DNA from: a phage
Strand: one strand, 5' to 3'
Assembly: GCA_011911785.1 (NCBI GenBank)
Contig: GCA_011911785.1_4084.1
DNA: 64,000 bases
Position numbers and translations under genes: made by a program. Below are positions 44,286 through 58,524 of this stretch, piece after piece (the stretch's first letter is position 1; every line of letters begins with the position of its first letter). The notes below the pieces were generated by a model. The model was not told the origin of the DNA. It ran no database searches and saw nothing but the letters and a program-made list of their open reading frames with translations.

Positions 44286-44292
44286 GAAATTA

Positions 44293-45483
44293 TTACAATT
44301 GTCTAGGTGTATCCAGAACATATCTATTTGTACTAGGACCACCATCATCATACGTTCCGGTTGAATATATATTTTTCATATCAGCAGTTAAAAATGTACG
44401 ATACGAACCTCTATATATTTTTATTTTATCATACATAGAATATGTTATTTGTGCTGGCAGTGGACATGCAGTAAATCTACCAATAGTAACATTAGAACCA
44501 ACACCCAATGTACCAGCATAACTACTCTCATTTAAACCAGTTGCATATACACCAGTACTCGTAACTAGTATACTAGATTGTGTTGGATATCCAGTATGGA
44601 TTGAATACAACGTGCCAGTTGGTAGAGTAGTACTATTATTTCCTAATACTGCTAGTGCTGTACTAGTCGTAGTGTTATTACCCCATGCACCATTCCTAGC
44701 TAAACCACCCACAAGGAACTGGCGTGCTCCTGTACTTGGATTTTCAACTAAAGCACTGACCGCACCACTTGAACAACCAGTGTATTGTAACGTTTTTGTA
44801 TATGTTGTACTTGGCTGATATAAAGTATATTCATTATAGGGAGTCCATGTGGTACTGGTACTTATACCTGACGTACCACCACCAATATATAAATTATTTT
44901 GTGTATCAAAAAACATTACACAGTTATTTGTTGACTGTATTTGTGCAATATCAACATTAGGCGTGACAGCTTTTACAAATGATCCATCTGTTATTTGTTG
45001 AGTACTACCAGTACCATCAGCGAATTGTCTAGCCCCACTCCAACCAGTACTCCATATTGTATTATTATCCATTAATACCGTAAACCACGTAGTACCTCCA
45101 TACATCTGTTTAATTGAAGTACTTGAACTTTGCGTGTACAAATTTTCAATATATTGGTTATAACTTAAAAACGTAGTAGTACTAGTTGGTAAACCAATAT
45201 GATCACCATATCCACAATAAAAATAATTTGAGTCATTATCTTTTACTAATAAAGTTCCTTGTGTAACCCAGCAATCATTAACGTTTTCTCTAATTAATGT
45301 CCATGATTTTAATGCAGTGTTGTTTCCCCTCCCAAATTTCCCAAAACTATTATCCCCACGTGCATATAGTTGACCATCCGTATACAGAACAACAACATCT
45401 AAATCAGTTGGGATTATTTTCTTAATTTGAAGTGGTACTGGGGTAATATTCCCATAATCAAATAATCTAACAAAAGGTAACAT
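44293..45483 (-). CDS. beta-propeller family protein, MLPFVRLFDYGN N-terminal module
   Basis: Conserved start context and N-terminus. Confidence 0.65.
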   Translation of the reverse strand: MLPFVRLFDYGNITPVPLQIKKIIPTDLDVVVLYTDGQLYARGDNSFGKFGRGNNTALKSWTLIRENVNDCWVTQGTLLVKDNDSNYFYCGYGDHIGLPTSTTTFLSYNQYIENLYTQSSSTSIKQMYGGTTWFTVLMDNNTIWSTGWSGARQFADGTGSTQQITDGSFVKAVTPNVDIAQIQSTNNCVMFFDTQNNLYIGGGTSGISTSTTWTPYNEYTLYQPSTTYTKTLQYTGCSSGAVSALVENPSTGARQFLVGGLARNGAWGNNTTTSTALAVLGNNSTTLPTGTLYSIHTGYPTQSSILVTSTGVYATGLNESSYAGTLGVGSNVTIGRFTACPLPAQITYSMYDKIKIYRGSYRTFLTADMKNIYSTGTYDDGGPSTNRYVLDTPRQL

Positions 45484-45529
45484 ATATTCCTCCTTTATTC
45501 ATTATACTATATTTACCCCAAAAAGAAAT

Positions 45530-45548
45530 GCCAGTATCAAGTACTGGC
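45530..45548 (-). terminator. intrinsic terminator, array cassette
   Basis: GCCAGTATCAAGTACTGGC hairpin. Confidence 0.5.
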
Positions 45549-45554
45549 CTATAT

Positions 45555-46724
45555 TTAAACTGGTGAATCTAATACAAATTCTAAACTACTAATGCCACCA
45601 TATGTGACATTTGTCCCTGTGCTATATACAAAATTACCATCAGTTATATAAGTTCGGTTATACCCACCTGCCATCTGCGACTTACTATAATCAAACCCAT
45701 CAGGAACGATTGCTTTGGTATATACTAATGCATTATTAGATGTACCAATACCTAACATACCAGCTTCTGAAGATTTATTGTAGCCGCAACAATATATACC
45801 ATCTGTTGTAGCAATAACTTGGTTATAATATGAAGTAATGTTAGCAATGCTTACTACATCACCGGGTGGCATTAGTGAAGCAGTTTGAACCTCAAATGCT
45901 CTATAATCACTGAGAGAACCATTTATCCCATCTGCTTGTGCACCAAATATTCTCGAACCGCCATTTGCGATGATGGTTTTACCAGTGGGATCAGTACCAA
46001 TTGCCATTGCCATTGAAGTACTATTCTCCATATAGTACTTGATATTAATTGTATTTCTTAAGCTGGTAGGAGCACCATAATATATAGTATATAACTTACC
46101 TCCTGAACTTGTAACTGCATTTACTCTTCCTGTATAAAATAGCCATCCTTGGTTTGTAACATAACCGTGCATTAAATTACTTGCAAACAATTTAACAGGT
46201 AATTGATCTGCTGCGGTCGGAACAGTACTTTTGACGAATTTTCTAGCAACATTGTTAGTTGTTGTCCCATCACCCAACTGACCATCACCCCCTGCTCCAG
46301 TACTCCATATTGTTTGGTCTGTTAGTAATACACTTGTAGTCTGATAACTAACTGCTATATCTAATATTGGTAATGTTAACGTATCGAATGTTGGCATAGC
46401 AGAAGTCCATATTGATACTGCTGCCCCTGGCATACCAACAGTTGTTGAACTTCCACTGTACCATATTTCATCATTGCTTTTCTTAATAACTATCGACGTG
46501 GCTCCCATCCAAAAATCTTGAACATCAGAAGTGCTAAAAGTCCATGTAGTAACAATATTTTTGTGACCTAAACCCAAAAGACCATTTGCATTCTCACCAC
46601 GCACATATAAATCACCACTGTTTGTTAAAACAGCAACATTATAGTTGTTAGCTAGTATTTTTTTAATATTTGGTTTAGCAGGTGCAATATTCCCATACTC
46701 TAACATTCTTACAAAAGGTAACAT
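45555..46724 (-). CDS. beta-propeller family protein, MLPFVRMLEYGN N-terminal module
   Basis: Conserved start context and N-terminus; GxGGDGQLGDG-like repeats. Confidence 0.65.
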   Translation of the reverse strand: MLPFVRMLEYGNIAPAKPNIKKILANNYNVAVLTNSGDLYVRGENANGLLGLGHKNIVTTWTFSTSDVQDFWMGATSIVIKKSNDEIWYSGSSTTVGMPGAAVSIWTSAMPTFDTLTLPILDIAVSYQTTSVLLTDQTIWSTGAGGDGQLGDGTTTNNVARKFVKSTVPTAADQLPVKLFASNLMHGYVTNQGWLFYTGRVNAVTSSGGKLYTIYYGAPTSLRNTINIKYYMENSTSMAMAIGTDPTGKTIIANGGSRIFGAQADGINGSLSDYRAFEVQTASLMPPGDVVSIANITSYYNQVIATTDGIYCCGYNKSSEAGMLGIGTSNNALVYTKAIVPDGFDYSKSQMAGGYNRTYITDGNFVYSTGTNVTYGGISSLEFVLDSPV

Positions 46725-46769
46725 AATTCCTCCTTTATTCATTATATTATATTTAATCCAAATAAGAAA

Positions 46770-46788
46770 GCCAGTATCAAGTACTGGC
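46770..46788 (-). terminator. intrinsic terminator, array cassette
   Basis: GCCAGTATCAAGTACTGGC hairpin. Confidence 0.5.
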
Positions 46789-46794
46789 TTTAAT

Positions 46795-47943
46795 TCATTG
46801 TATAAATGACATATCAACTTCGGTATATCTTGTAGTGTACTGCCCAGAACTTCCACCCATTACTAGATTGGAAAAACCAGTATAAAATAACTTACCTTCA
46901 TCTGTGAGAATCAAACTACCGATGTTATTCAGTACTAAACTGTAAGAACTATTAAAATTAGCATAGGACTGGGTATAATAGAACTGATTTGTAAGATTAC
47001 CAACACCCAATTGTCCACCAGTGTTAACCCCAGTTGCAAATATCGTAGTACCAAATCTGCGAATATGCGAGGCCATATTGCCGACGCAACAATGTACATT
47101 CTGAACATCCGAATTCAATAAAGTTGGTGTTGTGTATTGCTTAAGTGTTGTGCCTGTACCGAATTCATTACCATATGATACCCCATACTGTGTACCACAA
47201 GCGTACAATTTATTATCATCTTTAATAAAAAATGTACTCTGATAACTTACATCGACATCTATAACATTAGTCTGTATTCTAACAACTCCAGTACTAGCAG
47301 TTTGATTGCCTGTCCCTAACTGATAGTAAGTGTTAATACCACAACCCCATAATGTATTATCTTCTTTTAGGTATATGTTACCAACAGCTTTTTTTACCGA
47401 TGATATGGCTTCAATCTTAACAAAGGCGTTAAATGAATTTGTATTTGTGCCATTACCAAAAGATGATCTGGTTGATGTGCTGTTTGTTCCGCAGCAATAT
47501 AAAGTACCATCAGTTGTTATCAAATTCACTTTAAGATCACTGTAACTACTCATGTATTTTATATCAGAAACATTAATACCACTGGATGTTATCCATGAAG
47601 TACAATCTGTCCACGTGTTATAATATGCACCTGAACCAGAAAACGCACTCGGACTTCCTGTTATAAACACTTTTCCAGTACCGTCTTCTTCATATAATTG
47701 ACAACCACTACTGTTATTTTCCAAAAGAACTCTTTTAACATTAGTTGCACTAAGAATAAATTTACTTGACGATACACCAGTCCCCGTACCCTGACTGACT
47801 GCTGCTGAAGCATACAAATTTTTAGTGTATGTATCATGAAAATACATAGCACTACCACCGGAATATATTTTAAAACGTGTACTAGGATCTGGTGGAATTG
47901 GTGCAATATTCCCATAATCTAACATTCTTACAAAAGGTAACAT
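46795..47943 (-). CDS. beta-propeller family protein, MLPFVRMLDYGN N-terminal module
   Basis: Conserved start context; YYQLGTGN, GGQLGVGN repeats. Confidence 0.65.
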   Translation of the reverse strand: MLPFVRMLDYGNIAPIPPDPSTRFKIYSGGSAMYFHDTYTKNLYASAAVSQGTGTGVSSSKFILSATNVKRVLLENNSSGCQLYEEDGTGKVFITGSPSAFSGSGAYYNTWTDCTSWITSSGINVSDIKYMSSYSDLKVNLITTDGTLYCCGTNSTSTRSSFGNGTNTNSFNAFVKIEAISSVKKAVGNIYLKEDNTLWGCGINTYYQLGTGNQTASTGVVRIQTNVIDVDVSYQSTFFIKDDNKLYACGTQYGVSYGNEFGTGTTLKQYTTPTLLNSDVQNVHCCVGNMASHIRRFGTTIFATGVNTGGQLGVGNLTNQFYYTQSYANFNSSYSLVLNNIGSLILTDEGKLFYTGFSNLVMGGSSGQYTTRYTEVDMSFIQ

Positions 47944-47988
47944 AATTCCTCCTTTATTCATTATATTATATTTAATCCAAATAAGAAA

Positions 47989-48007
47989 GCCAGTATCAAG
48001 TACTGGC
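47989..48007 (-). terminator. intrinsic terminator, array cassette
   Basis: GCCAGTATCAAGTACTGGC hairpin. Confidence 0.5.
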
Positions 48008-48013
48008 ATTATG

Positions 48014-49123
48014 TTATTTTGGTAAATCAATTTTAGTAAAGACTGCAACATCCTCGCTTGCACCGGGAATGGCGTAATACGTTCCAGTACTATATACATC
48101 TCCATTTTTGGTTAATATTGAAGTCAAACCATCACTAAAAAGAACATCCCTAATCTCACTAACTTCAACGGGTAATTGTAAATTTGTAGCACTATATATA
48201 GCACCAGTTTGAGAATTGTTTAATCCCAAACCACGGTTCGCCCCAACACCCTTCTGATATGTACTGGTAATTACCATTTGTGTAGCAGTATTTAATGCAG
48301 GTGAATTCGTCATAAACAACGGAGAACTATTAGGAAAAGTACTTGCAGGAACTGCACGGAATGTAGTCGTGCCTGAACTAAGAAAGTTTGGAGTTTGACC
48401 ACATACGAAATATGATGTACCATTATAGTAATTAAATGCATTACCACCAATGGCTGCATCGATTACACCAGAACTACGTAATCCCCAAGTGTTAATTTGT
48501 GTTTGGTCCCCTGTACCATGCTGCCCACTGCTATTCCATCCAGAACTATATAGCTTATTATCTAATGTAATATACATACTATCATTTGCATTAGTCATTA
48601 CTTTACGCACGTTAGTAGCACATTGAGTTAATGTGTAAATCGATGATGAGCCAATACCTAAAGAACCACGATATCCATTATCTCCTGCACCATAGAGTAC
48701 TGAACTAGTGCTAAGTACAAATATTAAACCATTTGTACATACAATATTAGCAATTTCACTCACTGGTATAGCATTGGTAAACCAATTAGTCCTTTCAACT
48801 AATATAGTACTGTAAGAAGTAGTTGTAGAAGATGAGAACCAGTACGTTTCACCCGATGTCCATATCGTATTATCATTTTTAATAATAACAAGTGTACGAC
48901 CACCCACGAAAAAATTAGAAACATCTGAACTTACTAATATCCATGAAGATACCGTGTTGTTATTACCATTTCCAGATTCACCACCTTGATTTCTACCTAT
49001 GTAATATAAATCATGTGAATCAGTCAATAAGAATTGACCTTGTGTAGAAGCACCAACTTTAATTATATTTTTAGGACCAGGTACAATATTCCCATACTCT
49101 AACATTCTAACAAAAGGTAACAT
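48014..49123 (-). CDS. beta-propeller family protein, MLPFVRMLEYGN N-terminal module
   Basis: Conserved start context and N-terminus. Confidence 0.65.
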   Translation of the reverse strand: MLPFVRMLEYGNIVPGPKNIIKVGASTQGQFLLTDSHDLYYIGRNQGGESGNGNNNTVSSWILVSSDVSNFFVGGRTLVIIKNDNTIWTSGETYWFSSSTTTSYSTILVERTNWFTNAIPVSEIANIVCTNGLIFVLSTSSVLYGAGDNGYRGSLGIGSSSIYTLTQCATNVRKVMTNANDSMYITLDNKLYSSGWNSSGQHGTGDQTQINTWGLRSSGVIDAAIGGNAFNYYNGTSYFVCGQTPNFLSSGTTTFRAVPASTFPNSSPLFMTNSPALNTATQMVITSTYQKGVGANRGLGLNNSQTGAIYSATNLQLPVEVSEIRDVLFSDGLTSILTKNGDVYSTGTYYAIPGASEDVAVFTKIDLPK

Positions 49124-49169
49124 AATTCCTCCTTTATTCATTATACTATATTTAATACAAATAAGAAAA

Positions 49170-49188
49170 GCCAGTACAGAGTACTGGC
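49170..49188 (-). terminator. intrinsic terminator, array cassette
   Basis: GCCAGTACAGAGTACTGGC hairpin. Confidence 0.6.
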
Positions 49189-49195
49189 TATTATA

Positions 49196-50338
49196 TTATT
49201 TCCACGGTAGAAGTGAATCAGGAACTCTGGTTGGTACTCTAACGGCTGGAACATTTCCAAGTTCAGGTAAACCACTCATATACAAATTGTTATTTTCATC
49301 AATTATCATTGAATAGAAATTATCAATTACGAAGCCTGAAATTCGTCTTCCTTCTAATGCATCAAGAACCATTTCGGTGAAAGTTAGTATATTTTCGGAT
49401 GTTTGATTAACACCACATGCACCATAGGTATTTCGACCACAAGTATATAACTTATTATTATTTTTAACAACACATCCATTCCCTTCGTTGTTGGATAAAC
49501 CACCCACCAACTCTATTTCACCTTGGAATGATAAATTGGGAATTAATGTACTCATTGGTACTGCTGATACTCTACCTACACCAGCTTGACCATATGCATT
49601 TGGTGAAGCAACCTTCACTGAACCATCATTAAGAAATATATATGAAGTACGGTATGTATTTACAGCTTGTATAGCATTGGTGATCGTATTGTCTTTTGTA
49701 AAACTTAATATATTTGATGTTGTTGTACTACCAGGAGCAACAGTATTTCCTGCATACCAATAGGAGCCATCATCAAGTACTAACCCAGTACTGAGCAAAG
49801 AACAGCCATAACTTTTAACATTTTCTATAGTGCTGTATCTGAACGATGTGACATTAGCTGTTGACGCGTTACCAAATACACCACCTTCGCCAGCACCACA
49901 GTAGAACCATTTTCCATTTTTTAAAAATACACGCAAATTCTGCCCAACAGCAATACCATCAATATCATCAGCACTGACACCAAAATCAGTGAAGTACTGG
50001 GTTACATCAATCCAAACCCCATTTGTATTTGTTCCGATTTGTGGCATTACTATACTAGCACCTGTGAACCAAATAGTTCCATCATTCTTAATGGCAATGG
50101 AACCAAGAACACCACCCCAGTAACGTTCAATATTATTATTCACACGGGTCCATACGGTGGATGATTGTAATGAACCATTACCACCTTGTCCAAATGAAGA
50201 TGAACCATACCAGTACAAGTCACCATTAACATGCAAATAAAAACGAGTATTATAATTTGCTTGTAATCTATTTTTAAATAGAGGTTTTGGTTCTGGTGCT
50301 TCATTTCCATACTCTAACATTCTAGCAAAAGGTAACAT
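49196..50338 (-). CDS. beta-propeller family protein, MLPFARMLEYGN; near-duplicate of 50412..51554
   Basis: Same length (380 aa) and long identical stretches with neighbour. Confidence 0.7.
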   Translation of the reverse strand: MLPFARMLEYGNEAPEPKPLFKNRLQANYNTRFYLHVNGDLYWYGSSSFGQGGNGSLQSSTVWTRVNNNIERYWGGVLGSIAIKNDGTIWFTGASIVMPQIGTNTNGVWIDVTQYFTDFGVSADDIDGIAVGQNLRVFLKNGKWFYCGAGEGGVFGNASTANVTSFRYSTIENVKSYGCSLLSTGLVLDDGSYWYAGNTVAPGSTTTSNILSFTKDNTITNAIQAVNTYRTSYIFLNDGSVKVASPNAYGQAGVGRVSAVPMSTLIPNLSFQGEIELVGGLSNNEGNGCVVKNNNKLYTCGRNTYGACGVNQTSENILTFTEMVLDALEGRRISGFVIDNFYSMIIDENNNLYMSGLPELGNVPAVRVPTRVPDSLLPWK

Positions 50339-50385
50339 AATTTCCTCCTTTATTCATTATACTATATTTAATACAAATAAGAAAA

Positions 50386-50404
50386 GCCAGTACAGAGTAC
50401 TGGC
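50386..50404 (-). terminator. intrinsic terminator, array cassette
   Basis: GCCAGTACAGAGTACTGGC hairpin. Confidence 0.6.
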
Positions 50405-50411
50405 TATTATA

Positions 50412-51554
50412 TTATTTCCACGGTAGAAGTGAATCAGGAACCCTTGTCGGTACATTTGTAGTAGACACCCCATCAAGATTTGGTACACCGCATGTATATA
50501 AATTATCAGCATCGTCAACTAACATCGTATAGTTATATCCCCTACAAAAACTACTAACATTACGACCTTCTAATGCAGTAAGAATCATTTCAGTGAATGT
50601 TGTTATATTTGTCGAGGTTGAACCAACACCACATTGTCCATTTGAATTAAGACCACATAAAAATAACTTATTATCATTTTTAATTATACAGGATGGTCCA
50701 GTAAGGTTTGTACCAAGCTCACCCACTAACTCTATTTCACCTTGGAATGCTAAATTTGGAATTAATGTACTCATAGGGGCTGGTGTTGTATTCCCAGTAC
50801 CTGCTTGACCACGTTCGTTGGAAGATGCAACTTTAACTGTTCCATCACTAAGAAATATATAGGAAGTTTCAATTGTATTGACTGCTTTAATTGCAGTGCT
50901 GATAGAAGTTTCTTGTGTAAATCTTAGCACGTTTTGTGCTGACGTTCCCGATATAAACGTATTACCTGCATACCAATATGTACCATCATTGAGTACTAAT
51001 GCAGTACTTCGAATTGCACAACCAGCACTTCGAACATTTTCTATAGTACTGTACGTGAATTGTGAAACGCTTGCCGATGAACCATTTCCGAATACACCAC
51101 CACTCCCAGCACCACAGAAGAACCACTTTCCATTTTTCAAAAATACACGCATACACGCAGATATAACAATACTATCAATATCATCAGCACTGACACCGAA
51201 ATCAGCAAAGTGCGATGTCACATCAACCCAAACACCGTTAGTGTTTGATGCAATTACTGGAATAACAGAACTTGTACCAGTGTACCAAATAGTACCATCT
51301 TTCTTTATCGCTATTGTTCCTTGAACACCACCCCAATATCGTACAACATTTGTATTGACGAGAGTCCATGCGGTTGAAGAGTTCAATGAACCATTACCAC
51401 CTTGACCATATGATGAAGAACCAAACCAATATAGATTACCATTGGTGTGTAAATAAAATTTGGCATCTGCCGAGCATTGTAACCTATTTTTTAATCGTGG
51501 TGCGGGTTCCGGTGCAATATTCCCGTACTCTAACATTCTTGCAAAAGGTAACAT
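50412..51554 (-). CDS. beta-propeller family protein, MLPFARMLEYGN
   Basis: Starts 12 nt after upstream gene stop (co-transcribed). Confidence 0.7.
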   Translation of the reverse strand: MLPFARMLEYGNIAPEPAPRLKNRLQCSADAKFYLHTNGNLYWFGSSSYGQGGNGSLNSSTAWTLVNTNVVRYWGGVQGTIAIKKDGTIWYTGTSSVIPVIASNTNGVWVDVTSHFADFGVSADDIDSIVISACMRVFLKNGKWFFCGAGSGGVFGNGSSASVSQFTYSTIENVRSAGCAIRSTALVLNDGTYWYAGNTFISGTSAQNVLRFTQETSISTAIKAVNTIETSYIFLSDGTVKVASSNERGQAGTGNTTPAPMSTLIPNLAFQGEIELVGELGTNLTGPSCIIKNDNKLFLCGLNSNGQCGVGSTSTNITTFTEMILTALEGRNVSSFCRGYNYTMLVDDADNLYTCGVPNLDGVSTTNVPTRVPDSLLPWK

Positions 51555-51566
51555 AATTCCTCCATA

Positions 51567-52463
51567 TTATTTAAAAACATACTGCGTATTAACACGAGTG
51601 CCATTGTCAAAACCAAGTACATAAAATATCTCAGCACTATTCTTAGAACCAAATAACGCACCAGTACTACTACTCAAAGTAGTATTAACCGCTAAGGGAA
51701 TCCATATGTCTTCTTCTGCATCGTATCTCAATAAATTTAATGCACCATACGACACTGCATATATATTTTTATCATATGTACTGTAACATATTTTACTAGG
51801 GTTATTACCACCAACTGGTGCTATGTTAGACCACACCGCACTTTGTATATGATATTTTTGTGCAGTACTAGTACCTTGACCAGTAATATATATGTAAGTA
51901 CCATCCGTACACATATCACCACCTCCATTGTTATTTGTTCCATCACTTGTACCTAATGATGACCATGTATTAGTACTTGGAGTATAACTGTATAACGAAT
52001 TATTAGTAGGCGAACCCCACAAATATATCTTATCCCCAGCAGTAATCATCTTACTATACGCCAGTTGACTAGGCTTCCCAATACTGTTAGTGTTCAGAAT
52101 CCATGTATTTGTACTTATATTATATACATAAAAATTATTACTACTATTACCTGAACCACCAAACAAATATATTTTTCCCTGATAAGCACATAACGCACTA
52201 CCAAATGTAGATACAGGTGCATTGGCTAATTGTGACCACGTTCTTGTAGTTAAATTAAAACTCCATAACTGATTATCCGTCTGCACCGCATTCTGTATAC
52301 CACCAAATATATAAGCAATATTACTTTCCGCATCATACGTATAACCAAAGTTATTTCGTGCTGAAGGTACTGGTGTTGTAGTAAATTGTGTTCGTACTCC
52401 ACCATTTGGGCCAGGTAATGGACCTACATTCCCGAACTCAAACATTCTAACAAAAGGTAACAT
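51567..52463 (-). CDS. beta-propeller family protein, MLPFVRMFEFGN; Kelch-like repeats
   Basis: Conserved cassette start; IYLFGG/IYIFGG-type motifs. Confidence 0.65.
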   Translation of the reverse strand: MLPFVRMFEFGNVGPLPGPNGGVRTQFTTTPVPSARNNFGYTYDAESNIAYIFGGIQNAVQTDNQLWSFNLTTRTWSQLANAPVSTFGSALCAYQGKIYLFGGSGNSSNNFYVYNISTNTWILNTNSIGKPSQLAYSKMITAGDKIYLWGSPTNNSLYSYTPSTNTWSSLGTSDGTNNNGGGDMCTDGTYIYITGQGTSTAQKYHIQSAVWSNIAPVGGNNPSKICYSTYDKNIYAVSYGALNLLRYDAEEDIWIPLAVNTTLSSSTGALFGSKNSAEIFYVLGFDNGTRVNTQYVFK

Positions 52464-52511
52464 AATTCCTCCTTTATTCATTATACTATATTTAATCAAA
52501 AAAGAAAACCC

Positions 52512-52540
52512 TTGACACCCTTTCAGTACTGATGTACTAT
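52512..52540 (+). promoter_or_regulatory. sigma70-type promoter (TTGACA-17-TACTAT) for the small-gene array, divergent from beta-propeller array
   Basis: Hexamers in the 100-bp divergent intergenic region. Confidence 0.5.
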
Positions 52541-52565
52541 ATGAGAAATCTAAGGAGAATCGTAC

Positions 52566-52793
52566 ATGCCATATGCTCTAAAGTACTACATCAATGAACT
52601 AAATGAACTAGAGTACGCAAAGGTTCTCTCTGACCAATCGTGGCTAATTGAACTAAAAAATCATAAGAGCACAGGGTGTAACCTTATGCTTGGTAGTGCA
52701 CTGAATACCCTTACTGTGAGCATTGTACACAATACACTATTAGGGGATACCCGTAAACAATTTTTAAACATCTTAGTACTAGTGGCTATATGA
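52566..52793 (+). CDS. small protein, first gene of tandem small-paralog array
   Basis: ATG after AAGGAGAA. Confidence 0.55.
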   Translation: MPYALKYYINELNELEYAKVLSDQSWLIELKNHKSTGCNLMLGSALNTLTVSIVHNTLLGDTRKQFLNILVLVAI

Positions 52794-52990
52794 ACATTAA
52801 CCCGTACTACATCAATGCATTGCACCCTGGGCTACAAGATGCAATGAAGAACCAAAAAACAGTACTGAAAAATGCTAAACGCATACCAGGACTCCTGAAC
52901 TCAAACAGGAATAACCTCATATGGAATGCAATAGAAGGTAACGAAAGTATGCAGTACTATTTCATCTTAACACTACTATTGGAGTACTAA
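52790..52990 (+). CDS. small paralog-array protein
   Basis: ATGA overlap. Confidence 0.5.
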   Translation: MNINPYYINALHPGLQDAMKNQKTVLKNAKRIPGLLNSNRNNLIWNAIEGNESMQYYFILTLLLEY

Positions 52991-52991
52991 T

Positions 52992-53201
52992 ATGAATACT
53001 GAACATAAAGAATTCTACACCAAATACCTCAGCAACGAAGAACAAATGTTTCTAAGGAGTGTACCACCTGTAAGTATAGACACACCCAACACAAGGAATT
53101 GCTTTAATAATTGTATACGTAGTACTCTAGAAGCTATTGAATGCAATAACAAAAATATGCAGTACTCAAGTTTAATCGGACTAATATACTTCTATGAATA
53201 A
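52992..53201 (+). CDS. small paralog-array protein (HKEFYTKYL N-terminal motif)
   Basis: Starts 2 nt after stop; family motifs. Confidence 0.55.
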   Translation: MNTEHKEFYTKYLSNEEQMFLRSVPPVSIDTPNTRNCFNNCIRSTLEAIECNNKNMQYSSLIGLIYFYE

Positions 53202-53385
53202 TCATAAAGATTTCTACTGTAGTAAACTACACGAACAATACAGGGACTCATTCCCTCAAGAACCTATGAGAAAGAATAGTCCCTTTTATAATTACGATTT
53301 CAGGTTGGAGACACGTTATGCAATAGAACAACCATTTACTTCAACTAAGTACCGCTCTATCCTGAACCTCATCTTTAAGTTCTAA
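53194..53385 (+). CDS. small paralog-array protein (HKDFYCSKL)
   Basis: Family motifs. Confidence 0.5.
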   Translation: MNNHKDFYCSKLHEQYRDSFPQEPMRKNSPFYNYDFRLETRYAIEQPFTSTKYRSILNLIFKF

Positions 53386-53605
53386 AAAGGTACTATATGA
53401 AAACTACAAACATTCATCAGTACTACATAGATATTCTCCCTAAAGATATACAGTTCATACTTAAACAAGAATTCAGTACTTTTTAAAAACTTAAAAGAAC
53501 CGCACCGAATGTACTCATCCAGCACCAAAAAAATGTCGTGCGTAATATTCTACAAGGTGCAACAGGGACCGAGTACTTTAATATAGTAAGGCTAATTACA
53601 TTACA

Positions 53606-53791
53606 ATGAATCATATAAGCTACTATTACCAAAAACTATCCGACAGAGACAAGTACAGCCACAACTCCCATGTGTGGTACTACAAACGCGGCAGTATAAG
53701 AGACAAACAACATTACTTCTGTACTGCTATAAAAGAAACACTAACAACTAAGTACACGTACAGAGCAGTACTTAAACTTATTGAAATGTAG
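53606..53791 (+). CDS. small paralog-array protein
   Basis: Family-like termini. Confidence 0.5.
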   Translation: MNHISYYYQKLSDRDKYSHNSHVWYYKRGSIRDKQHYFCTAIKETLTTKYTYRAVLKLIEM

Positions 53792-53799
53792 AGAATACA

Positions 53800-53979
53800 A
53801 TGCTAGAATACTACCTAAGCGTAATTTACCCAGAAGATAGATACGGCTTCAATTACTTCTCAATGAGCTATCATTGTAGTTCGCAAAGAAAACAAAGAAA
53901 ATTACTCCTGAATTGTACTAAATTGGCACAGGACGAAATGTTCACATATAATGAAGTACTGAAACTAATCTCTATATAA
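53800..53979 (+). CDS. small paralog-array protein (MLEYY...), 59 aa
   Basis: Below ORF-track cutoff; ATG 9 nt after previous stop. Confidence 0.4.
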   Translation: MLEYYLSVIYPEDRYGFNYFSMSYHCSSQRKQRKLLLNCTKLAQDEMFTYNEVLKLISI

Positions 53980-53989
53980 GGAATAAACT

Positions 53990-54169
53990 ATGCTAGAGTA
54001 CTACACCGATAATCTCAGTACTAAGGATCGTTTCATGTACGACACCTTCGTGAAGTACTACAACATAGGAACAAAAAGTACTAAAACTATTAATCTCAAT
54101 AGCTGCATTCATCACGTCCTGACAAAAAATAACCCATACAGAGAAATAATCTCGCTTGTAACAGTATAA
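53990..54169 (+). CDS. small paralog-array protein (MLEYY...), 59 aa
   Basis: Below ORF-track cutoff; paralog of previous. Confidence 0.4.
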   Translation: MLEYYTDNLSTKDRFMYDTFVKYYNIGTKSTKTINLNSCIHHVLTKNNPYREIISLVTV

Positions 54170-54197
54170 GCAGTATAAGCAATTTAAGGAGACTAAA

Positions 54198-54869
54198 ATG
54201 AAACTCAATCCACAAAGCAAACGATACCTACAGCACTTTAAGTACCTACAATCAATCCAGGCTGAATCTACCACTAATGCATATACTTATCATCCTAATG
54301 TACTAAAGAACCTAAAGAAAAGTAAAAAAACCAGTACAAATGGAGTTAACGTATCAAAGAACCTTGAATTGTACATGAAGAAAAATAATATAGCTGTTCA
54401 TTATATGAATATCTATAATACTGATTTAAAAGTATTGAGTACTAATACGAGCATGAAGGTACTAAAGAACGCATCCTTCATCATCCATATGCAGTTGGAT
54501 AATACCCCGTGCACTTTAATGCTATACTTCGGGAATACATACTTCTTCGGGAATTGTAACACCTCCCACGATGTCAATACAGCACAATTCCAAATGGGTG
54601 GCATATACAGTATGGGTTCAGAAGAAATACACGATAACATGCATTTCTTCCAACAGCAACGTACAGAAGAAACTAAATCAATTGTAGAATTCCTCAAAGA
54701 ACTACAAGGCAAAGAATTATCAGAAGAAGAACTATTCATGTACAGTACTGTAATCGATAATCCTGTACTGTACAAAAACGCGTACAATCTTACAAAACAT
54801 GTACAGGAACTTATCAGTACTAATAAGAAAATTCATCACCTCATTACATATATTACAAACTATGCATAA
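54198..54869 (+). CDS. hypothetical 223-aa protein embedded in the small-gene array
   Basis: ATG after AAGGAGACTAAA. Confidence 0.55.
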   Translation: MKLNPQSKRYLQHFKYLQSIQAESTTNAYTYHPNVLKNLKKSKKTSTNGVNVSKNLELYMKKNNIAVHYMNIYNTDLKVLSTNTSMKVLKNASFIIHMQLDNTPCTLMLYFGNTYFFGNCNTSHDVNTAQFQMGGIYSMGSEEIHDNMHFFQQQRTEETKSIVEFLKELQGKELSEEELFMYSTVIDNPVLYKNAYNLTKHVQELISTNKKIHHLITYITNYA

Positions 54870-55044
54870 AGAATACTACGTAAGTAAACTTACAATAGAT
54901 CTCCAAAAACTTATTCCCCAAAAACCTGTAGATTTCAAAGATAAAAGCCAAACTATATTCTACCGATATCAAACAGAATCTGCAATAAATGAAGATGATA
55001 TCTATAACCTGTACAATGTACTAACACTTATATACAGGTACTAA
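54862..55044 (+). CDS. small paralog-array protein (MHKEYY...LIYRY)
   Basis: Internal ATG; conserved N- and C-terminal motifs. Confidence 0.6.
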   Translation: MHKEYYVSKLTIDLQKLIPQKPVDFKDKSQTIFYRYQTESAINEDDIYNLYNVLTLIYRY

Positions 55045-55045
55045 T

Positions 55046-55234
55046 ATGCACAAAGAATACTACACAAAATATTTCCCAATGTACCTCAGAACTAATCTAT
55101 TAGATAAACCTCGCGGTATCAATGCACAAAACGATAAAAAGTACTTTACTATGTGCACTAAAGCATGTATACAAGATTATGATAGCTATCATCGAGTACT
55201 GTACCACACCCTGTACCTCGCATTCGTGTACTAA
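55046..55234 (+). CDS. small paralog-array protein (MHKEYY...LAFVY)
   Basis: Starts 2 nt after stop. Confidence 0.6.
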   Translation: MHKEYYTKYFPMYLRTNLLDKPRGINAQNDKKYFTMCTKACIQDYDSYHRVLYHTLYLAFVY

Positions 55235-55243
55235 GGAAATCAT

Positions 55244-55444
55244 ATGCATAAAGAACACTACATAAAAGAACTACCAAAGTTTCTACAAGGCAATCTATTA
55301 GATGATGAACCTCGCGACATTAACTGTATATACGAAGCTGATTACTTCCGTACATGTACTGAACAAGTACTTAATGAAGAAGTTAATGAAAACAATTCTC
55401 AAGTGCAACTGTACCACACTCTGTATCTCGCGTTCCAGTACTAA
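55244..55444 (+). CDS. small paralog-array protein (MHKEHY...LAFQY)
   Basis: Conserved termini. Confidence 0.6.
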   Translation: MHKEHYIKELPKFLQGNLLDDEPRDINCIYEADYFRTCTEQVLNEEVNENNSQVQLYHTLYLAFQY

Positions 55445-55452
55445 GGACTAAT

Positions 55453-55635
55453 ATGTATAAAGAATTTTATAAAGATCATCTCCCAATGCATCTCCAACAC
55501 CATGTGCCAACAAAACCATTGGGCATAAAAGATCATGCAAAAATAATGTTCCAACAATGTACTAAGTACACCCTAATATACGATGACAATCCATATATGC
55601 TGTACTACATAACAATGCTAATATTCAGGTACTAA
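55453..55635 (+). CDS. small paralog-array protein (MYKEFY...LIFRY)
   Basis: Conserved termini. Confidence 0.6.
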   Translation: MYKEFYKDHLPMHLQHHVPTKPLGIKDHAKIMFQQCTKYTLIYDDNPYMLYYITMLIFRY

Positions 55636-55637
55636 TC

Positions 55638-55838
55638 ATGTATAAAGAATACTATATGAGTAAACTATCAAGCACCGAAAGAATCTGGTGCGGAGCCGCC
55701 GCCCCCGTTAATCCAAAAAGTGCATACGCAAAAATGTGCTTTAGGAAAGCTACAACGAACTCAATTGAAGCTCTAGAACAAGATGACACTAAAGCACTAT
55801 ACTCTAACCTAATGTTGCTAGTATATATCTATGGATAA
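55638..55838 (+). CDS. small paralog-array protein (MYKEYY...)
   Basis: Conserved termini. Confidence 0.6.
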   Translation: MYKEYYMSKLSSTERIWCGAAAPVNPKSAYAKMCFRKATTNSIEALEQDDTKALYSNLMLLVYIYG

Positions 55839-56022
55839 TTATAAAGAATACTATAAACAATTTGTTAAAGAGAACTACAAAGATGCCGTCCCCGTAATCC
55901 CTTTAAATTCCCATGACCCAAGTTCTATATTCTTGTTTAAGGACGCAATACGTACAGTACTCAATACTAAAGATGAACAGGTGCAGTACGTATTCTTACT
56001 ATTACTTATATACAGACACTAA
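55831..56022 (+). CDS. small paralog-array protein (YKEYY...LIYRH)
   Basis: Conserved termini. Confidence 0.6.
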   Translation: MDNYKEYYKQFVKENYKDAVPVIPLNSHDPSSIFLFKDAIRTVLNTKDEQVQYVFLLLLIYRH

Positions 56023-56023
56023 T

Positions 56024-56221
56024 ATGAATGACCATAAAGAATTCTATATAAGTAAACTCAAAGAGAATGAACAAGTATGGATTAACGCTCTAATCCCTCT
56101 ACCAATGACTCGATATGAATTTAATAAATGTACTAATATAGCAATAGACCCTTCTCCTGTTCTAGAGAATGTACAGTACAATCAGTACTACTATATCTTA
56201 ATGCTTATATATAGGAAGTAA
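56024..56221 (+). CDS. small paralog-array protein (HKEFY...LIYRK)
   Basis: Internal ATG 2 nt after previous stop. Confidence 0.6.
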   Translation: MNDHKEFYISKLKENEQVWINALIPLPMTRYEFNKCTNIAIDPSPVLENVQYNQYYYILMLIYRK

Positions 56222-56851
56222 TTAAACACATATAGCTAGGGGAAGCTCCGTAGTGCAAGCATTATACAGGCTTTAACATATGTTGCATATGTTAAAATTC
56301 AGCCTGGACAAATGCGATCACTAGGATTCTCCCCAGGCTAAACCCCGTAATCATAGGTAGTCATAAGTAATCATATATAAACATTTAAGTAATCATTTAT
56401 AATCATTGCAGTGAAGAGTATTGAGTACTGTTTCCCCTATATGATTCAGTACTGATATCCCACTAAGTAGGCAAATGAAGTCGCCCAAAATTTACATAAT
56501 TTTACAGTACTGAACAATTGCAAAACAAATCATTTCCAATCAAAAGTAATCACGGAATGACCAGTACTGAAAACTCCCAATCACCTATTCAAAAAAGTTC
56601 AATTTACCCTTTGTCAAAAATCCCGAATACCCATTGGGGAAAATTCCGAATACCCCTTGAGGCTCCAGCAAAAAGTTGGTTAGTACTCCATTGTAAATCT
56701 GGATCGTAAAAATTTTGGAGTACCTATGAAATAAAAGTTGGATCTTCGAAAGTTGAAATTTACATTGGGACATATAGGATTAGTGGGATATAATGAGTTT
56801 TGAAGAGATACAGAAGATATGTTTTCAGTACTGAATAATGAAAGAAATCTA

Positions 56852-56879
56852 TTGACATTATGATTCAGTACTGTATAAT
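56852..56879 (+). promoter_or_regulatory. orphan sigma70-type promoter (TTGACA-16-TATAAT) in non-coding hub
   Basis: Consensus hexamers with no ORF downstream. Confidence 0.45.
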
Positions 56880-57280
56880 GTTCTACATAGAGTGATGGAT
56901 TGCCGCAAACAATTCAGAGCCTTAACCCTCCTGTCGTGAGACAGTACAGAAGAGATTGAATCCTCCTATGCAGTGGTTCATCTTTGACAACCTCTTTTTT
57001 CGTAATATAAACAGTACTGTTATTAACAGAATGGTAGCAGTACTGATATTAATCTAATATAATGTTACCATGCAATGTGGTGAATTTCCCTTAACAGTAT
57101 TCAGTACTACATGATAGTCTTCATCCTCCTAGGGTAACATAGTGAGGGCTATTGTGGCAGTACTGAATACTCCTTTCACAAGATAGATCTATGGTATAGT
57201 ACTGACGGATTTTGGGCGTAGTAACCCTGGGTGGATTTTGGACGTAGAGATGCCTAGCCCTCCAGAAGTCTGGAAGTAAA

Positions 57281-57408
57281 GATGGCTATCCCTCTAGACG
57301 GCTGGATGGCTAGATTTCTAGATGGCTGTACTGCTAGACGTTTGGACGGCTAAACGGCTAAACGGCTAAACGGCTAGATGGTTAAACGTCTGGATGTATA
57401 GACGGCTA
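57281..57408. repeat. tandem array of ~16 copies of an 8-bp unit (consensus GAYGGCTA)
   Basis: Direct reading: gatggcta, gacggctg, gatggcta, gacggcta, aacggcta x3, gatggtta, gacggcta etc. in strict 8-bp register. Confidence 0.85.
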
Positions 57409-57573
57409 AATCAAAATTTTTATTTTGTTTTTTCCAATAGTTCCCCTACCGCGTGGGGATGGTTTCCCCGCAGTATCTGGAGTTAGATTTTTCTGAATCT
57501 GGAATCATTATCTAATAAACTGGGGGCAATGTCAACCGCCTGGATGAATATTTTTAAAAATAATCTAGTACTG

Positions 57574-57650
57574 AATTTTGGGCGTAACTATGCACCCGGT
57601 GGGCTAGAGTCTTTCTCGACTTGATGAAATAATTATAGCAGTACTGAATG
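57574..57650 (+). repeat. repeat element B copy (ttttgggcgta...gcacccggtgggctagag...taattata)
   Basis: Shares ~50-bp core with copies at 57786, 59660, 61176. Confidence 0.5.
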
Positions 57651-57785
57651 ATAAAAGCAATAGCCTAAGTGTAAAAAGTTTTAATTAATTTGCTTGCCAT
57701 CCTGGGGCGTACTATGGTACTATGATTCAGTACTGAGAAAGTGCTTTTACCTGCTAGGGTGCGGGAGTGTATCCTTTTTAAATTT

Positions 57786-57860
57786 ACTGAATTTTGGGCG
57801 TAGTTCCGCACCCCCTGGGGTATCCGCTTTCTCGCGTCTATGTAGTAATTATACGCTTTT
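57786..57860 (+). repeat. repeat element B copy
   Basis: ttttgggcgtagttccgcaccccctggggtatccgctttctcgcgtctatgtagtaattatac. Confidence 0.5.
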
Positions 57861-58078
57861 TTAGTACTGAGTCAATAGCTAAAAACAAAATAATTGAAAA
57901 TAATTTAACGCGTTTAAATGGCCCGTAAAGCCCTGGATTGTTGGGAGTGGTGCAAATGTATAGCTTAGGTGTATTAATGCGTTAGAATGCGTATGAGGCC
58001 GTTTTAAGGGTATAGTACTGAATAATAGTACTCCTATATAGAAAGAAAACTATTTTAAAAAGTATTTGTAGAAAGTAC

Positions 58079-58106
58079 TTGCAAAGTATTGGGAAAGGTG
58101 TAGAAT
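58079..58106 (+). promoter_or_regulatory. early-type promoter (aaaagtacTTGCAA-16-TAGAAT-gttttacatc)
   Basis: First of >=12 near-identical promoter units in block C. Confidence 0.6.
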
Positions 58107-58120
58107 GTTTTACATCGAGA

Positions 58121-58137
58121 GCGGGAACACTTCCCGC
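58121..58137 (+). promoter_or_regulatory. 5' leader hairpin (GCGGGAA-CAC-TTCCCGC)
   Basis: Inverted repeat between -10 and SD. Confidence 0.55.
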
Positions 58138-58161
58138 TACACTTTAAGAGAGATTAAAACG

Positions 58162-58524
58162 ATGGCTACTCAAATCAATAAAATTATTGCTAACCTGGTT
58201 AACTTCCGCGAAGAGATGAAAGGTCTTCCGGCTGAAACTGTAAAGATTCACATTTCAGCTTATCGGGAATTGATTGCGATGTTACCGCTTAAGCGTGAAC
58301 AATACGCCGCTACCGTGATGCTTGATGCGATGATCCACAAGATGATTGCCAGTGATTTAACGATGGCTTATCAGTACATGGGCGAAATGTTTGCGGTGTA
58401 TAGTAAACCAGTACCAGGGATGGAAAGTACCGAAGTATTGCACGGTTTAAACTTAAAACAAGATGCATGGGATAATATGCCTCGTTTCCTGGTATGGGCT
58501 GACAGTGGCAAGATTTACGAATAA
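58162..58524 (+). CDS. hypothetical protein
   Basis: ATG downstream of leader hairpin; track start 58105 lies in the -10. Confidence 0.6.
   Translation: MATQINKIIANLVNFREEMKGLPAETVKIHISAYRELIAMLPLKREQYAATVMLDAMIHKMIASDLTMAYQYMGEMFAVYSKPVPGMESTEVLHGLNLKQDAWDNMPRFLVWADSGKIYE

What the first reader, a model, noticed from the sequence alone, without database searches (positions are those of the whole stretch)
52566..56221. Tandem array of 15 genes, mostly ~60-75-aa paralogs with conserved termini
Between the beta-propeller array and the non-coding hub lie 15 back-to-back genes separated by 0-10 nt, driven by one divergent promoter. Most encode 59-75 aa proteins starting M(H/Y)KE(Y/F)Y..(K/Y)L and ending in a hydrophobic (L/I)(I/A)(Y/F)(R/Q/V)(Y/H/K); one is a 223-aa insert. 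Extensive local amplification of tiny genes is a pattern associated with anti-defence or host-takeover factors, though that role is speculative here.
Basis: partly seen in the sequence, partly recalled or inferred. Interest (0 to 1): 0.7.

Follow-up and report, generated by a model that had tools for sequence, protein, structure and literature searches.

The report
Tandem family of tiny phage proteins
A giant E. coli virus carries a back-to-back row of 15 related genes for tiny, tyrosine-rich helical proteins found only in its own genus; the row changes quickly between relatives, and what the proteins do is still unknown.

Summary
Window 52566-56221 (+) holds 16 tightly packed ORFs, not 15. 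Fifteen belong to one family of 59-75 aa; one of these, g05, carries a nonsense codon. The sixteenth is an unrelated 223-aa gene that splits the array.

The window comes from an Asteriusvirus (121Q/PBECO4-like jumbo coliphage), 96% identical to phage A4. The family is PHROG 11711 (function unknown). It has no Pfam, PADLOC or PDB relatives and occurs only in this genus.

AlphaFold gives a confident four-helix mini-domain (pLDDT 87) with no informative fold match.

Eleven relatives carry 14-22 intact copies, which fall into 29 orthogroups; eight orthogroups are present in all eleven. Orthologues are under moderate purifying selection (pN/pS about 0.4).

In a divergent lineage (JNE01) the repertoire is almost wholly different, although the flanks stay 80-93% identical.

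A conserved sigma70-type promoter drives the array. The genes are translationally coupled. The array ends 245 bp before the inferred start of the ~21-kb terminal repeat.

Best reading: an early operon of diversified small binder proteins acting on host or defence targets, evolving by birth and death. The anatomy and evolution are shown; the function is inferred. It is a new member of a known kind, of moderate interest.

The parts
52512..52540 (+). Sigma70-type promoter of the array: TTGACA, 17-nt spacer, TACTAT. The palindrome CAGTACTG (52524-52531) lies in the spacer.
   Evidence: Consensus scan, 10 of 12 matches. The promoter is conserved in all 12 Asteriusvirus genomes aligned. No transcription data.
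52552..52557 (+). Shine-Dalgarno AAGGAG of the first gene
   Evidence: Read from the sequence; conserved in 12 genomes.
52566..52793 (+). g01, 75 aa. Most divergent family member (orthogroup A).
   Evidence: ORF. Full-family HMM E = 4.6e-16; leave-one-out E = 0.089. An orthologue is present in all 11 genomes compared.
52790..52990 (+). g02, 66 aa. Family member (orthogroup W). Its start overlaps the g01 stop (ATGA).
   Evidence: leave-one-out E = 6.7e-8.
52992..53201 (+). g03, 69 aa. Family member (orthogroup B).
   Evidence: phrog_11711 E = 1.2e-13; leave-one-out E = 2e-15.
53194..53385 (+). g04, 63 aa. Family member (orthogroup C). Overlaps g03 by 8 nt.
   Evidence: leave-one-out E = 7e-10.
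53397..53609 (+). g05. Family member (orthogroup R) interrupted by an in-frame TAA at 53484-53486. Either a probable pseudogene or a base-calling error at a T/A run.
   Evidence: Both halves hit the HMM (E = 3e-6 and 3e-9). The gene is intact (AAA) in A4, slurp01 and G17.
53606..53791 (+). g06, 61 aa. Family member (orthogroup D).
   Evidence: leave-one-out E = 1.7e-5. Orthologue pN/pS 0.17.
53800..53979 (+). g07, 59 aa. Family member (orthogroup X).
   Evidence: Full-family HMM E = 1e-14; leave-one-out E = 0.017.
53990..54169 (+). g08, 59 aa. Family member (orthogroup E).
   Evidence: leave-one-out E = 3.9e-5.
54198..54869 (+). g09, 223 aa. Unrelated, genus-restricted protein that splits the array in every genome examined. 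It has its own AAGGAG Shine-Dalgarno.
   Evidence: phrog_29152 E = 3e-136, function unknown. Only Asteriusvirus orthologues found. hhalign against the family gives probability 0.5%. The AF2 model is unusable, pLDDT 41. pN/pS 0.46.
54862..55044 (+). g10, 60 aa. Family member (orthogroup Y). Overlaps g09 by 8 nt.
   Evidence: phrog_11711 E = 9e-13.
55046..55234 (+). g11, 62 aa. Family member (orthogroup F).
   Evidence: Leave-one-out E = 2.6e-8. Orthologue pN/pS 0.19.
55244..55444 (+). g12, 66 aa. Family member (orthogroup S). This is the protein that was modelled.
   Evidence: phrog_11711 E = 4e-25. AF2 pLDDT 87, pTM 0.74, four helices.
55453..55635 (+). g13, 60 aa. Family member (orthogroup N).
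   Evidence: Leave-one-out E = 4.4e-9.
55638..55838 (+). g14, 66 aa. Family member (orthogroup Z).
   Evidence: phrog_11711 E = 1e-11.
55831..56022 (+). g15, 63 aa. Family member (orthogroup G). Overlaps g14 by 8 nt.
   Evidence: phrog_11711 E = 1.6e-7.
56024..56221 (+). g16, 65 aa. Last family member (orthogroup H).
   Evidence: phrog_11711 E = 2.4e-20.
56466..56466 (.). Inferred first base of the ~21-kb direct terminal repeat (AGTAGGCA...), 245 bp after the array. Context only.
   Evidence: The physical left end of fEgEco12 (PMC13070987) aligns here; the junction sequence ...atatcccacta|AGTAGGCA is shared.

Best explanation
The array is a multigene family specific to the genus Asteriusvirus (PHROG 11711). 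It is expressed as one operon from a host-sigma70-type promoter. The genes abut or overlap, so translation is coupled. In several junctions the last codons of one gene (AGG-TAC-TAA, GAG-TAC-TAA) or a TAAGGA just after the stop supply the ribosome-binding site of the next gene.

Each product is a soluble, tyrosine-rich protein of about 60 aa that folds into a four-helix mini-domain. The aromatic and hydrophobic core is conserved: Tyr6, Leu10, Phe35, Cys38, Thr/Ile39, Ile/Leu43, Tyr/Leu56, Leu60, Leu62 and Ile63 in g12 numbering. Almost every other position differs between paralogues.

I infer that the members act early in infection as stoichiometric binders of host or host-defence proteins, each paralogue with its own target or target allele. 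The repertoire is reshaped by birth and death: unequal recombination at the conserved 30-70-nt gene junctions, loss, and nonsense decay such as g05.

What is shown: the anatomy, the homology, the restricted distribution, a confident predicted fold, copy-number and repertoire turnover, purifying selection, and the conserved promoter sequence.

What is inferred: early timing, binding as the mode of action, host or defence proteins as the targets, and the recombination mechanism.
For: - Family reality: the HMM hits only the array in the window, and leave-one-out tests support membership.
- Restricted distribution: 25 hits among 5.8 billion proteins and 34 of 1.84 billion representatives, all full-length and 41-75 aa. 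tblastn finds 31-36 phage records, all Escherichia or Salmonella Asteriusvirus.
- Fold: AF2 pLDDT 87, pTM 0.74, helices at 3-7, 12-19, 29-44 and 49-65.
- Core versus surface: the conserved columns are hydrophobic or aromatic, and most others carry more than 3 bits of entropy.
- The proteins are not uniformly basic: pI ranges from 4.6 to 9.9. GRAVY is mostly negative and there is no signal peptide or transmembrane-length segment.
- Composition: Tyr makes up 9.6% of codons against 5.5% in other genes, and C-ending Tyr and Phe codons make up 70% against 42% and 35%.
- Turnover: 14-22 intact copies in 11 genomes, 29 orthogroups, eight of them universal, always split by g09.
- Selection: pN/pS is 0.40-0.42, against 0.18 for the downstream 139-aa gene.
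- Divergent lineage: JNE01 keeps the architecture, but its members are mostly about 30% identical to the best match and g09 is 39% identical. The flanking hub and terminal repeat remain 80-93% identical in DNA, and the 139-aa gene is 92% identical in protein.
- Promoter: conserved in 12 genomes.
- Setting: the array belongs to a + strand block rich in TTGAC(A/T)-N16-18-TAnnnT sites (36 on the + strand, 5 on the - strand). It abuts the terminal repeat. In the related phage CBB the equivalent region of short ORFs with RpoD-like promoters was proposed to be early host-takeover genes (PMC5259590).
- No array protein appears in the phAPEC6 virion proteome (PMC7247149).
- Junction repeats of 30-70 nt at 61-88% identity recur every 184-210 bp.
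- Variable regions of large phage genomes are enriched in defence and anti-defence genes (PMC12028318).
Against: - No expression, interaction or phenotype data were found for any member.
- There is no sequence or fold similarity to any characterised host-takeover or anti-defence protein.
- Orthologues show purifying selection, not positive selection; no alignment column exceeds neutrality.
- Eight paralogues are conserved across the main clade, which fits stable housekeeping roles inside the phage as well as it fits an arms race.
- The promoter is only a consensus match. The scan found no more such sites in this region than in shuffled sequence (23 found, 24.5 expected).
- Small proteins are easily missed by virion mass spectrometry.
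Confidence: 0.45

Rival explanations
1. The family has a phage-internal role. Its members could be adaptors, chaperones or regulators for phage components, for example for the ten neighbouring RCC1-like beta-propeller virion proteins. Or they could be factors acting on phage DNA or transcription, possibly through the over-represented CAGTACTG palindrome.
For: - The array sits back to back with an equally expanded and variable RCC1-like array at 38465-52481.
- RCC1-like proteins are virion components in phAPEC6 (PMC7247149).
- Eight paralogues are conserved one-to-one in 11 genomes, and selection is purifying.
- CAGTACTG lies in the spacer of the array's own promoter.
Against: - The two arrays use different upstream cassettes. 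The small genes have a sigma70 -35/-10 promoter. Eight of the ten RCC1-like genes have a private AAATATARTATAATG cassette with no -35 element. This suggests different timing.
- pI ranges from 4.6 to 9.9, and the fold searches returned no helix-turn-helix or other DNA-binding domain among the matches.
- No array protein was found in virions.
Confidence: 0.2
2. This is dosage amplification (a genomic accordion). The copies are functionally redundant and exist to raise the amount of one activity.
For: - Copy number varies from 14 to 22 among close relatives.
- The copies are arranged in tandem with repeated junctions.
- Tandem duplication was proposed as a route of genome growth for 121Q (PMC5646251).
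Against: - Paralogues within the window are only 13-48% identical.
- Surface positions differ almost completely between paralogues.
- Eight distinct paralogues are each retained in all 11 genomes under purifying selection.
- No near-identical neighbouring copies were seen.
Confidence: 0.1
3. The members are membrane-active or toxic peptides, for example for superinfection exclusion, lysis timing or host killing, acting through the hydrophobic C-terminal helix.
For: - The C-terminus is hydrophobic, of the form (L/I)x(L)(I/V)(Y/F)xx.
- The proteins are small.
- Expression is probably early.
Against: - The hydrophobic stretch is only about 10-13 residues and contains polar residues.
- AF2 places this stretch in the fourth helix of a confidently predicted compact domain, and the conserved hydrophobic positions lie in that helix.
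- GRAVY is negative for 14 of 15 members, and there is no signal peptide.
Confidence: 0.08
4. These are non-functional ORFs: decaying duplicates or annotation artefacts.
For: - g05 carries a nonsense codon.
- Remnants of members exist in PBECO4, CRJP21 and SD-15_S21.
- pN/pS (0.4) is higher than that of the neighbouring gene.
Against: - 195 intact copies in 11 genomes keep frame and length.
- pN/pS is well below 1.
- The structure prediction is confident.
- The promoter and Shine-Dalgarno are conserved.
- Random ORFs of 59 codons or more are rare at 35% GC.
Confidence: 0.03

Closest known systems
PHROG 11711 (and PHROG 29152 for the 223-aa gene)
   Same: Six of the nine small proteins tested match phrog_11711 over its full length, with E = 1e-7 to 4e-25. 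g09 matches phrog_29152 at E = 3e-136.
   Different: Both PHROGs are listed as 'unknown function'. g01, g06 and g08 fall below the PHROG threshold and are joined to the family only by the array-specific profile.
Blocks of small early accessory genes in large lytic phages: the SPO1 host-takeover module, the T5 pre-early genes in the terminal repeat, the hyperplastic regions of T4-type phages (own knowledge), and the early region proposed for phage CBB (PMC5259590)
   Same: Many small ORFs of unknown function sit behind host-sigma70-type promoters, near or in a long terminal repeat, and vary between relatives.
   Different: Those blocks are mostly unrelated genes. Here 15 of 16 genes are paralogues of one fold. 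Early timing has not been measured for any Asteriusvirus.
Terminal multigene families of large eukaryotic DNA viruses (African swine fever virus MGF100/110/360/505; poxvirus host-range families and K3L 'accordions') (own knowledge)
   Same: Tandem paralogue arrays lie next to terminal repeats. Copy number varies between isolates, evolution is by birth and death, and pseudogenes occur.
   Different: There is no homology, and the host domain of life differs. The copies here are old and divergent (13-48% identity) rather than recent near-identical amplifications. No link to host range has been shown.
Anti-defence loci (anti-CRISPR clusters, anti-defence islands; PMC11724313, PMC12028318)
   Same: Small proteins, rapid turnover, clustering in variable regions.
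   Different: No member matches a known anti-defence family. The best BFVD non-family hit, an Acb2/Tad1 hairpin domain, has E = 2.8 and TM 0.25, which is noise. No aca-like regulator was recognised. Anti-defence clusters usually hold unrelated genes.
The neighbouring RCC1-like beta-propeller array (window 38465-52481, - strand)
   Same: It is a second, adjacent tandem paralogue expansion in the same genome and is also highly variable between relatives.
   Different: It has a different fold and size (310-1007 aa), lies on the opposite strand, and has a different upstream cassette. Its products are virion proteins in phAPEC6.

Membership tests
PHROG 11711 | Significant full-length match to the family HMM | tested here: met
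   g03, g10, g12, g14, g15 and g16 match with E = 1.6e-7 to 4.3e-25 across profile positions 1-62. g01, g06 and g08 do not reach E = 0.01 but match the array-built HMM.
Birth-and-death multigene family | Copy-number variation, turnover of orthogroups and pseudogenes among relatives, with selection maintaining the survivors | tested here: met
   14-22 intact copies and 29 orthogroups in 11 genomes. There is a nonsense allele and there are remnants. pN/pS is 0.40.
Genomic accordion (recent dosage amplification) | Near-identical tandem copies that expand and contract on short time scales | tested here: not met
   Paralogues are 13-48% identical. No near-identical neighbours were found in any of the 11 genomes.
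Early host-takeover gene block (SPO1 / T5 pre-early type) | Transcription by unmodified host RNA polymerase immediately after infection | tested here: inconclusive
   There is a near-consensus TTGACA-17-TACTAT promoter conserved in 12 genomes. No transcript data exist, and promoter-like sites are not enriched over shuffled sequence in this region.
Early host-takeover gene block (SPO1 / T5 pre-early type) | Products inhibit or redirect host macromolecular synthesis (toxic when expressed alone) | not testable with these tools
   This requires expression in E. coli.
Known anti-defence proteins (Acr, Ocr/Ard, Tad, Acb, Gad and others) | Sequence or structural homology to a characterised anti-defence family | tested here: not met
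Known anti-defence proteins | Restores phage plating on a host carrying a defined defence system | not testable with these tools
   This is an experiment.
Helix-turn-helix or other small DNA-binding regulators | A recognisable DNA-binding fold and a basic surface | tested here: not met
Membrane or tail-anchored small proteins | A hydrophobic segment of about 18 or more residues, or a signal peptide | tested here: not met
   The C-terminal hydrophobic run is about 10-13 residues and lies in the fourth helix of the confidently predicted domain. GRAVY is negative for 14 of 15 members.

The most novel reading that the evidence does not exclude
The array is a phage-encoded library of tyrosine-rich mini-binders built on a previously undescribed four-helix scaffold. 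Each paralogue would neutralise a different host defence or host-factor allele, so the repertoire (8 core and about 21 accessory orthogroups) would help set which E. coli and Salmonella strains an Asteriusvirus can infect.
Probability: 0.2. Interest if true: 0.75.

Novelty: new member of a known kind. Interest (0 to 1): 0.45.

Why it matters
Jumbo phages of this genus are being isolated repeatedly as therapy candidates, yet more than 80% of their genes have no function. This array is one of the fastest-changing parts of the genome, is conserved in architecture across the genus, and encodes a confidently foldable mini-domain with no known relatives.

If the members bind host or defence proteins, they would give a compact set of new inhibitors and a genetic handle on host range. 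If instead they serve the phage internally, they would still be an unusual case of 15-22 sub-functionalised paralogues of a 60-residue protein.

Either way, the array can be tested directly: it is small, contiguous and bounded by conserved sequence, which makes a clean deletion straightforward.

Tried and rejected
- **Pfam, PADLOC and PDB sequence searches.** No meaningful hits.
- **g09 structure.** The model is unusable (pLDDT 41). g09 as a fused or expanded family member is rejected (hhalign probability 0.5%, HMM score below zero).
- **Distant homologues in other Rak2-like genera.** The exhaustive profile search and tblastn found none.
- **Site-wise positive selection.** MST-based counts show no column above neutrality. 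The data are too few for a formal codon-model test.
- **Rfam on 52300-58300.** Only one sub-threshold chance hit.
- **Tandem Repeats Finder.** It does not detect the ~190-bp gene periodicity because the copies are too divergent.
- **Literature.** No paper found describes this array. Hua et al. [quoted passage not shown] A search for CAGTACTG returned only primer sequences.
- **Other paralogue arrays.** The ~150-aa ORFs at 4.7-16 kb are not detectably paralogous by BLAST at E = 1e-5.
- **First dN/dS script.** It timed out and was rewritten.

Full report
**What the window is.** The 4-kb region matches 36 phage records, all Escherichia or Salmonella jumbo phages of the genus Asteriusvirus (the 121Q / PBECO4 / phAPEC6 group). 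The best match is Escherichia phage A4, at 96% identity over 98% of the query. The 223-aa protein is 100% identical to a protein on a 358,987-bp contig deposited as E. coli, so the source is probably a phage genome inside a bacterial assembly.

**Checking the observation.** Between 52566 and 56221 the + strand carries 16 ORFs with spacings from -8 to +28 nt. About 98% of the region is coding.
- Fifteen ORFs are homologous small proteins.
It has an in-frame TAA where phage A4 has AAA, and it is intact in A4, slurp01 and G17.
- A profile built from the 15 members hits only these ORFs among 1313 six-frame ORFs of the window; the next best hit has E = 0.045.
- In leave-one-out tests 13 of 15 members score E = 4e-5 to 2e-15. 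g07 (0.017) and g01 (0.089) are marginal.
- Identity to g12 is 13-48%.
- The 223-aa gene g09 is not a family member (hhalign probability 0.5%).

**Regulatory anatomy.**
- A TTGACA-17-TACTAT promoter (52512-52540) followed by an AAGGAG Shine-Dalgarno is conserved in all 12 genomes aligned.
- On the other strand, the RCC1-like gene really starts at the ATG at 52463. It is preceded by a different cassette: a terminator-like hairpin GCCAGTACTnnnTACTGGC with a T-run, then AAATATARTATAATGAATAAAGGAGG. Eight of the ten RCC1-like genes share this cassette and it occurs nowhere else in the window. The 'one divergent promoter' is therefore two unlike elements placed back to back.
- Inside the array, five genes have no Shine-Dalgarno and start by overlap or abutment (ATGA, TAATATG).
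- In several other junctions the penultimate codons of the upstream gene (AGG-TAC-TAA, GAG-TAC-TAA) or a TAAGGA just after the stop provide the Shine-Dalgarno. Part of the 'conserved C-terminus' may therefore be under a double constraint. This is an inference.
- No terminator was found after g16.

**The proteins.**
- The family is phrog_11711 and g09 is phrog_29152; both are listed with unknown function.
- There are no Pfam, PADLOC or PDB-sequence relatives.
- AlphaFold2, using only the 14 window paralogues as the alignment, gives a confident model of g12: pLDDT 87, pTM 0.74, with helices at residues 3-7, 12-19, 29-44 and 49-65.
- Across 126 unique family sequences the conserved columns are Tyr6 (100%), Leu10, Phe35, Cys38, Thr/Ile39, Ile/Leu43, Tyr/Leu56, Leu60, Leu62 (95%) and Ile63. 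Most other columns carry more than 3 bits of entropy. The family thus has a fixed hydrophobic and aromatic core, while nearly every other position differs between paralogues.
- The proteins are Tyr-rich: 9.6% of codons against 5.5% elsewhere.
- pI ranges from 4.6 to 9.9, GRAVY is mostly negative, and there is no signal peptide or segment of transmembrane length.
- Tyr and Phe codons end in C 70% of the time, against 42% and 35% in other genes.

**Distribution.** The family is confined to the genus.
- 25 hits among 5.8 billion clustered proteins.
- 34 of 1.84 billion representatives in an exhaustive HMMER scan. Thirty-three are 59-75 aa and matched end to end; one is a 41-aa fragment.
- tblastn with three different members finds only 31-36 Asteriusvirus records.
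- g09 is equally restricted.

**Evolution.**
- I extracted the locus from ten relatives and called members with the HMM.
- Intact copy number is 14-22, and every genome has two sub-arrays separated by g09.
- Clustering at 62% identity or more gives 29 orthogroups. Eight of them (A-H) occur once in each of the 11 genomes; the rest are patchy.
- The window reads A W B C [R, nonsense] D X E | g09 | Y F S N Z G H. Its closest relative A4 additionally has an intact R, plus U and P.
- Remnants of R and O persist in PBECO4, CRJP21 and SD-15_S21.
- Pooled pN/pS among orthologues is 0.40, or 0.42 along minimum spanning trees. The range per orthogroup is 0-1.1, and no alignment column lies above neutrality.
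- For comparison, g09 has pN/pS 0.46 and the downstream 139-aa gene 0.18.
- The divergent lineage JNE01 keeps the architecture: RCC1-like genes, promoter, about 6 small genes, a 224-aa gene, about 10 small genes, and an ORF-poor hub.
- Only 4 of 15 JNE01 members reach 53-58% identity to any member elsewhere; the others are about 30% identical. g09 is 39% identical.
- By contrast the hub and terminal-repeat flank is 80-93% identical in DNA, and the 139-aa gene is 92% identical in protein. The array is thus a hypervariable island between conserved flanks.
- Gene junctions form 30-70-nt direct repeats (61-88% identity) every 184-210 bp. These are plausible substrates for unequal recombination. 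This is an inference.

**Genomic setting.**
- The physical ends of fEgEco12 were mapped by PhageTerm and restriction digests, giving a 20,993-bp direct terminal repeat (PMC13070987).
- Its array ends at 353,438 and its right repeat starts at 353,741.
- Its first bases (AGTAGGCA...) align to window position 56466, with the same junction sequence '...atatcccacta|AGTAGGCA'.
- The array is therefore the last coding block of the unique region, 245 bp from the inferred terminal-repeat boundary.
- The + strand of the window is rich in TTGAC(A/T)-N16-18-TAnnnT sites: 36 on the + strand against 5 on the - strand.
- In the related phage CBB, the comparable region of short ORFs with RpoD-like promoters next to and inside the terminal repeat was proposed to be early host-takeover genes (PMC5259590).
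- In phAPEC6 the RCC1-like neighbours are virion proteins, but no array product was detected in virions (PMC7247149).

**Interpretation.** The anatomy, family status, restricted distribution, fold prediction, turnover and selective constraint rest on direct results. The early timing and the mode of action are inferred.

My preferred reading (confidence about 0.45) is an early, translationally coupled operon of diversified small binder proteins that act on host or defence targets. The fixed core with paralogue-specific variable positions, the tyrosine enrichment and the island-like turnover all fit this reading. So does the general finding that variable regions of large phages concentrate defence and anti-defence genes (PMC12028318).

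Against it, orthologues are under purifying rather than positive selection, eight paralogues are stably conserved, and nothing links any member to a target.

The main rival is a phage-internal role, for example with the adjacent RCC1-like proteins (about 0.2). The different promoter cassettes weaken it but do not exclude it. Redundant dosage amplification, membrane or toxic peptides, and non-functional ORFs are each contradicted by specific results (see the rival explanations).

**Novelty.** The genes are annotated as hypothetical proteins in every record and are catalogued in PHROGs. Tandem duplication in 121Q has been mentioned in one sentence (PMC5646251). I found no description of this array, its fold, its repertoire structure or its position at the terminal-repeat boundary. 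It is a new member of a known kind: a lineage-specific multigene family in the plastic, early-type periphery of a large virus genome. Interest is moderate (0.45).

Noticed in passing
whole window (for example 490, 899, 1423, 19474, 52524, 56866, 59568, 60827): The palindrome CAGTACTG occurs 57 times in 64 kb, against about 0.7 expected from base composition. Its core AGTACT occurs 229 times against about 22 expected, and CAGTAC and GTACTG are the most over-represented hexamers. In coding regions AGTACT falls equally in all three frames (20/19/17), so the selection acts on the DNA. A subset of sites lies in the spacer of strong sigma70-type promoters (TTGAC(A/T)-N9-CAGTACTG-TATAAT). Another subset forms terminator-like stems (GCCAGTACTnnnTACTGGC followed by Ts). 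Its function is unknown; it could be an operator, a binding site for a nucleoid-type protein, or a modification site.
   Followed up: partly
window 56222-58100: A stretch of about 1.9 kb with no convincing ORF follows the array and is left unannotated in 121Q, A4 and other relatives. It contains the inferred terminal-repeat boundary (56466), ten CAGTACTG sites and a perfect 12/12 sigma70 promoter (56852-56879). It also holds short tandem repeats: ACGGCTAA-type units at 57294-57408, a 23-nt unit at 56605-56659 and GTAATCATAA units at 56347-56407. There is no Rfam match.
   Followed up: partly
window 54754-54861 (3' end of g09, in the frame of g10): The reading frame of g10 stays open upstream of its ATG, across the 3' end of g09. 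There it encodes ...YRNLSVLIRKF..., which resembles the C-terminal helix of a family member (HMM positions 33-61). The DNA at 54816-54838 is 78% identical to the g02/g03 gene junction. The C-terminus of g09 may overprint the relic of a lost family member.
   Followed up: partly
window 38465-52481, - strand: Ten RCC1-like beta-propeller paralogues lie in tandem. Eight have a private upstream cassette (hairpin with T-run, then AAATATARTATAATGAATAAAGGAGG). The repertoire differs strongly between relatives: best matches range from 99% down to 26% identity. Homologues are virion proteins in phAPEC6.
   Followed up: partly
window 52566-56221: Codon usage in the array differs from the rest of the window. 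TAC makes up 70% of Tyr codons (42% elsewhere) and TTC 70% of Phe codons (35% elsewhere), while other C/T-ending codon pairs are unchanged. TAC is most often preceded by G, which creates GTAC. AT skew reaches +0.2 here.
   Followed up: partly
window 922-3217: A cluster of five tRNA genes (Gly-TCC, Ser-GCT, Met-CAT, Asn-GTT, Thr-TGT) interspersed with strong sigma70/CAGTACTG promoters.
   Followed up: no
window 54198-54869 (g09): The protein is 100% identical to a RefSeq entry labelled Escherichia coli on a 358,987-bp contig. The window probably comes from a lytic jumbo-phage genome deposited within a bacterial assembly (compare PMC12768965, listed).
   Followed up: no
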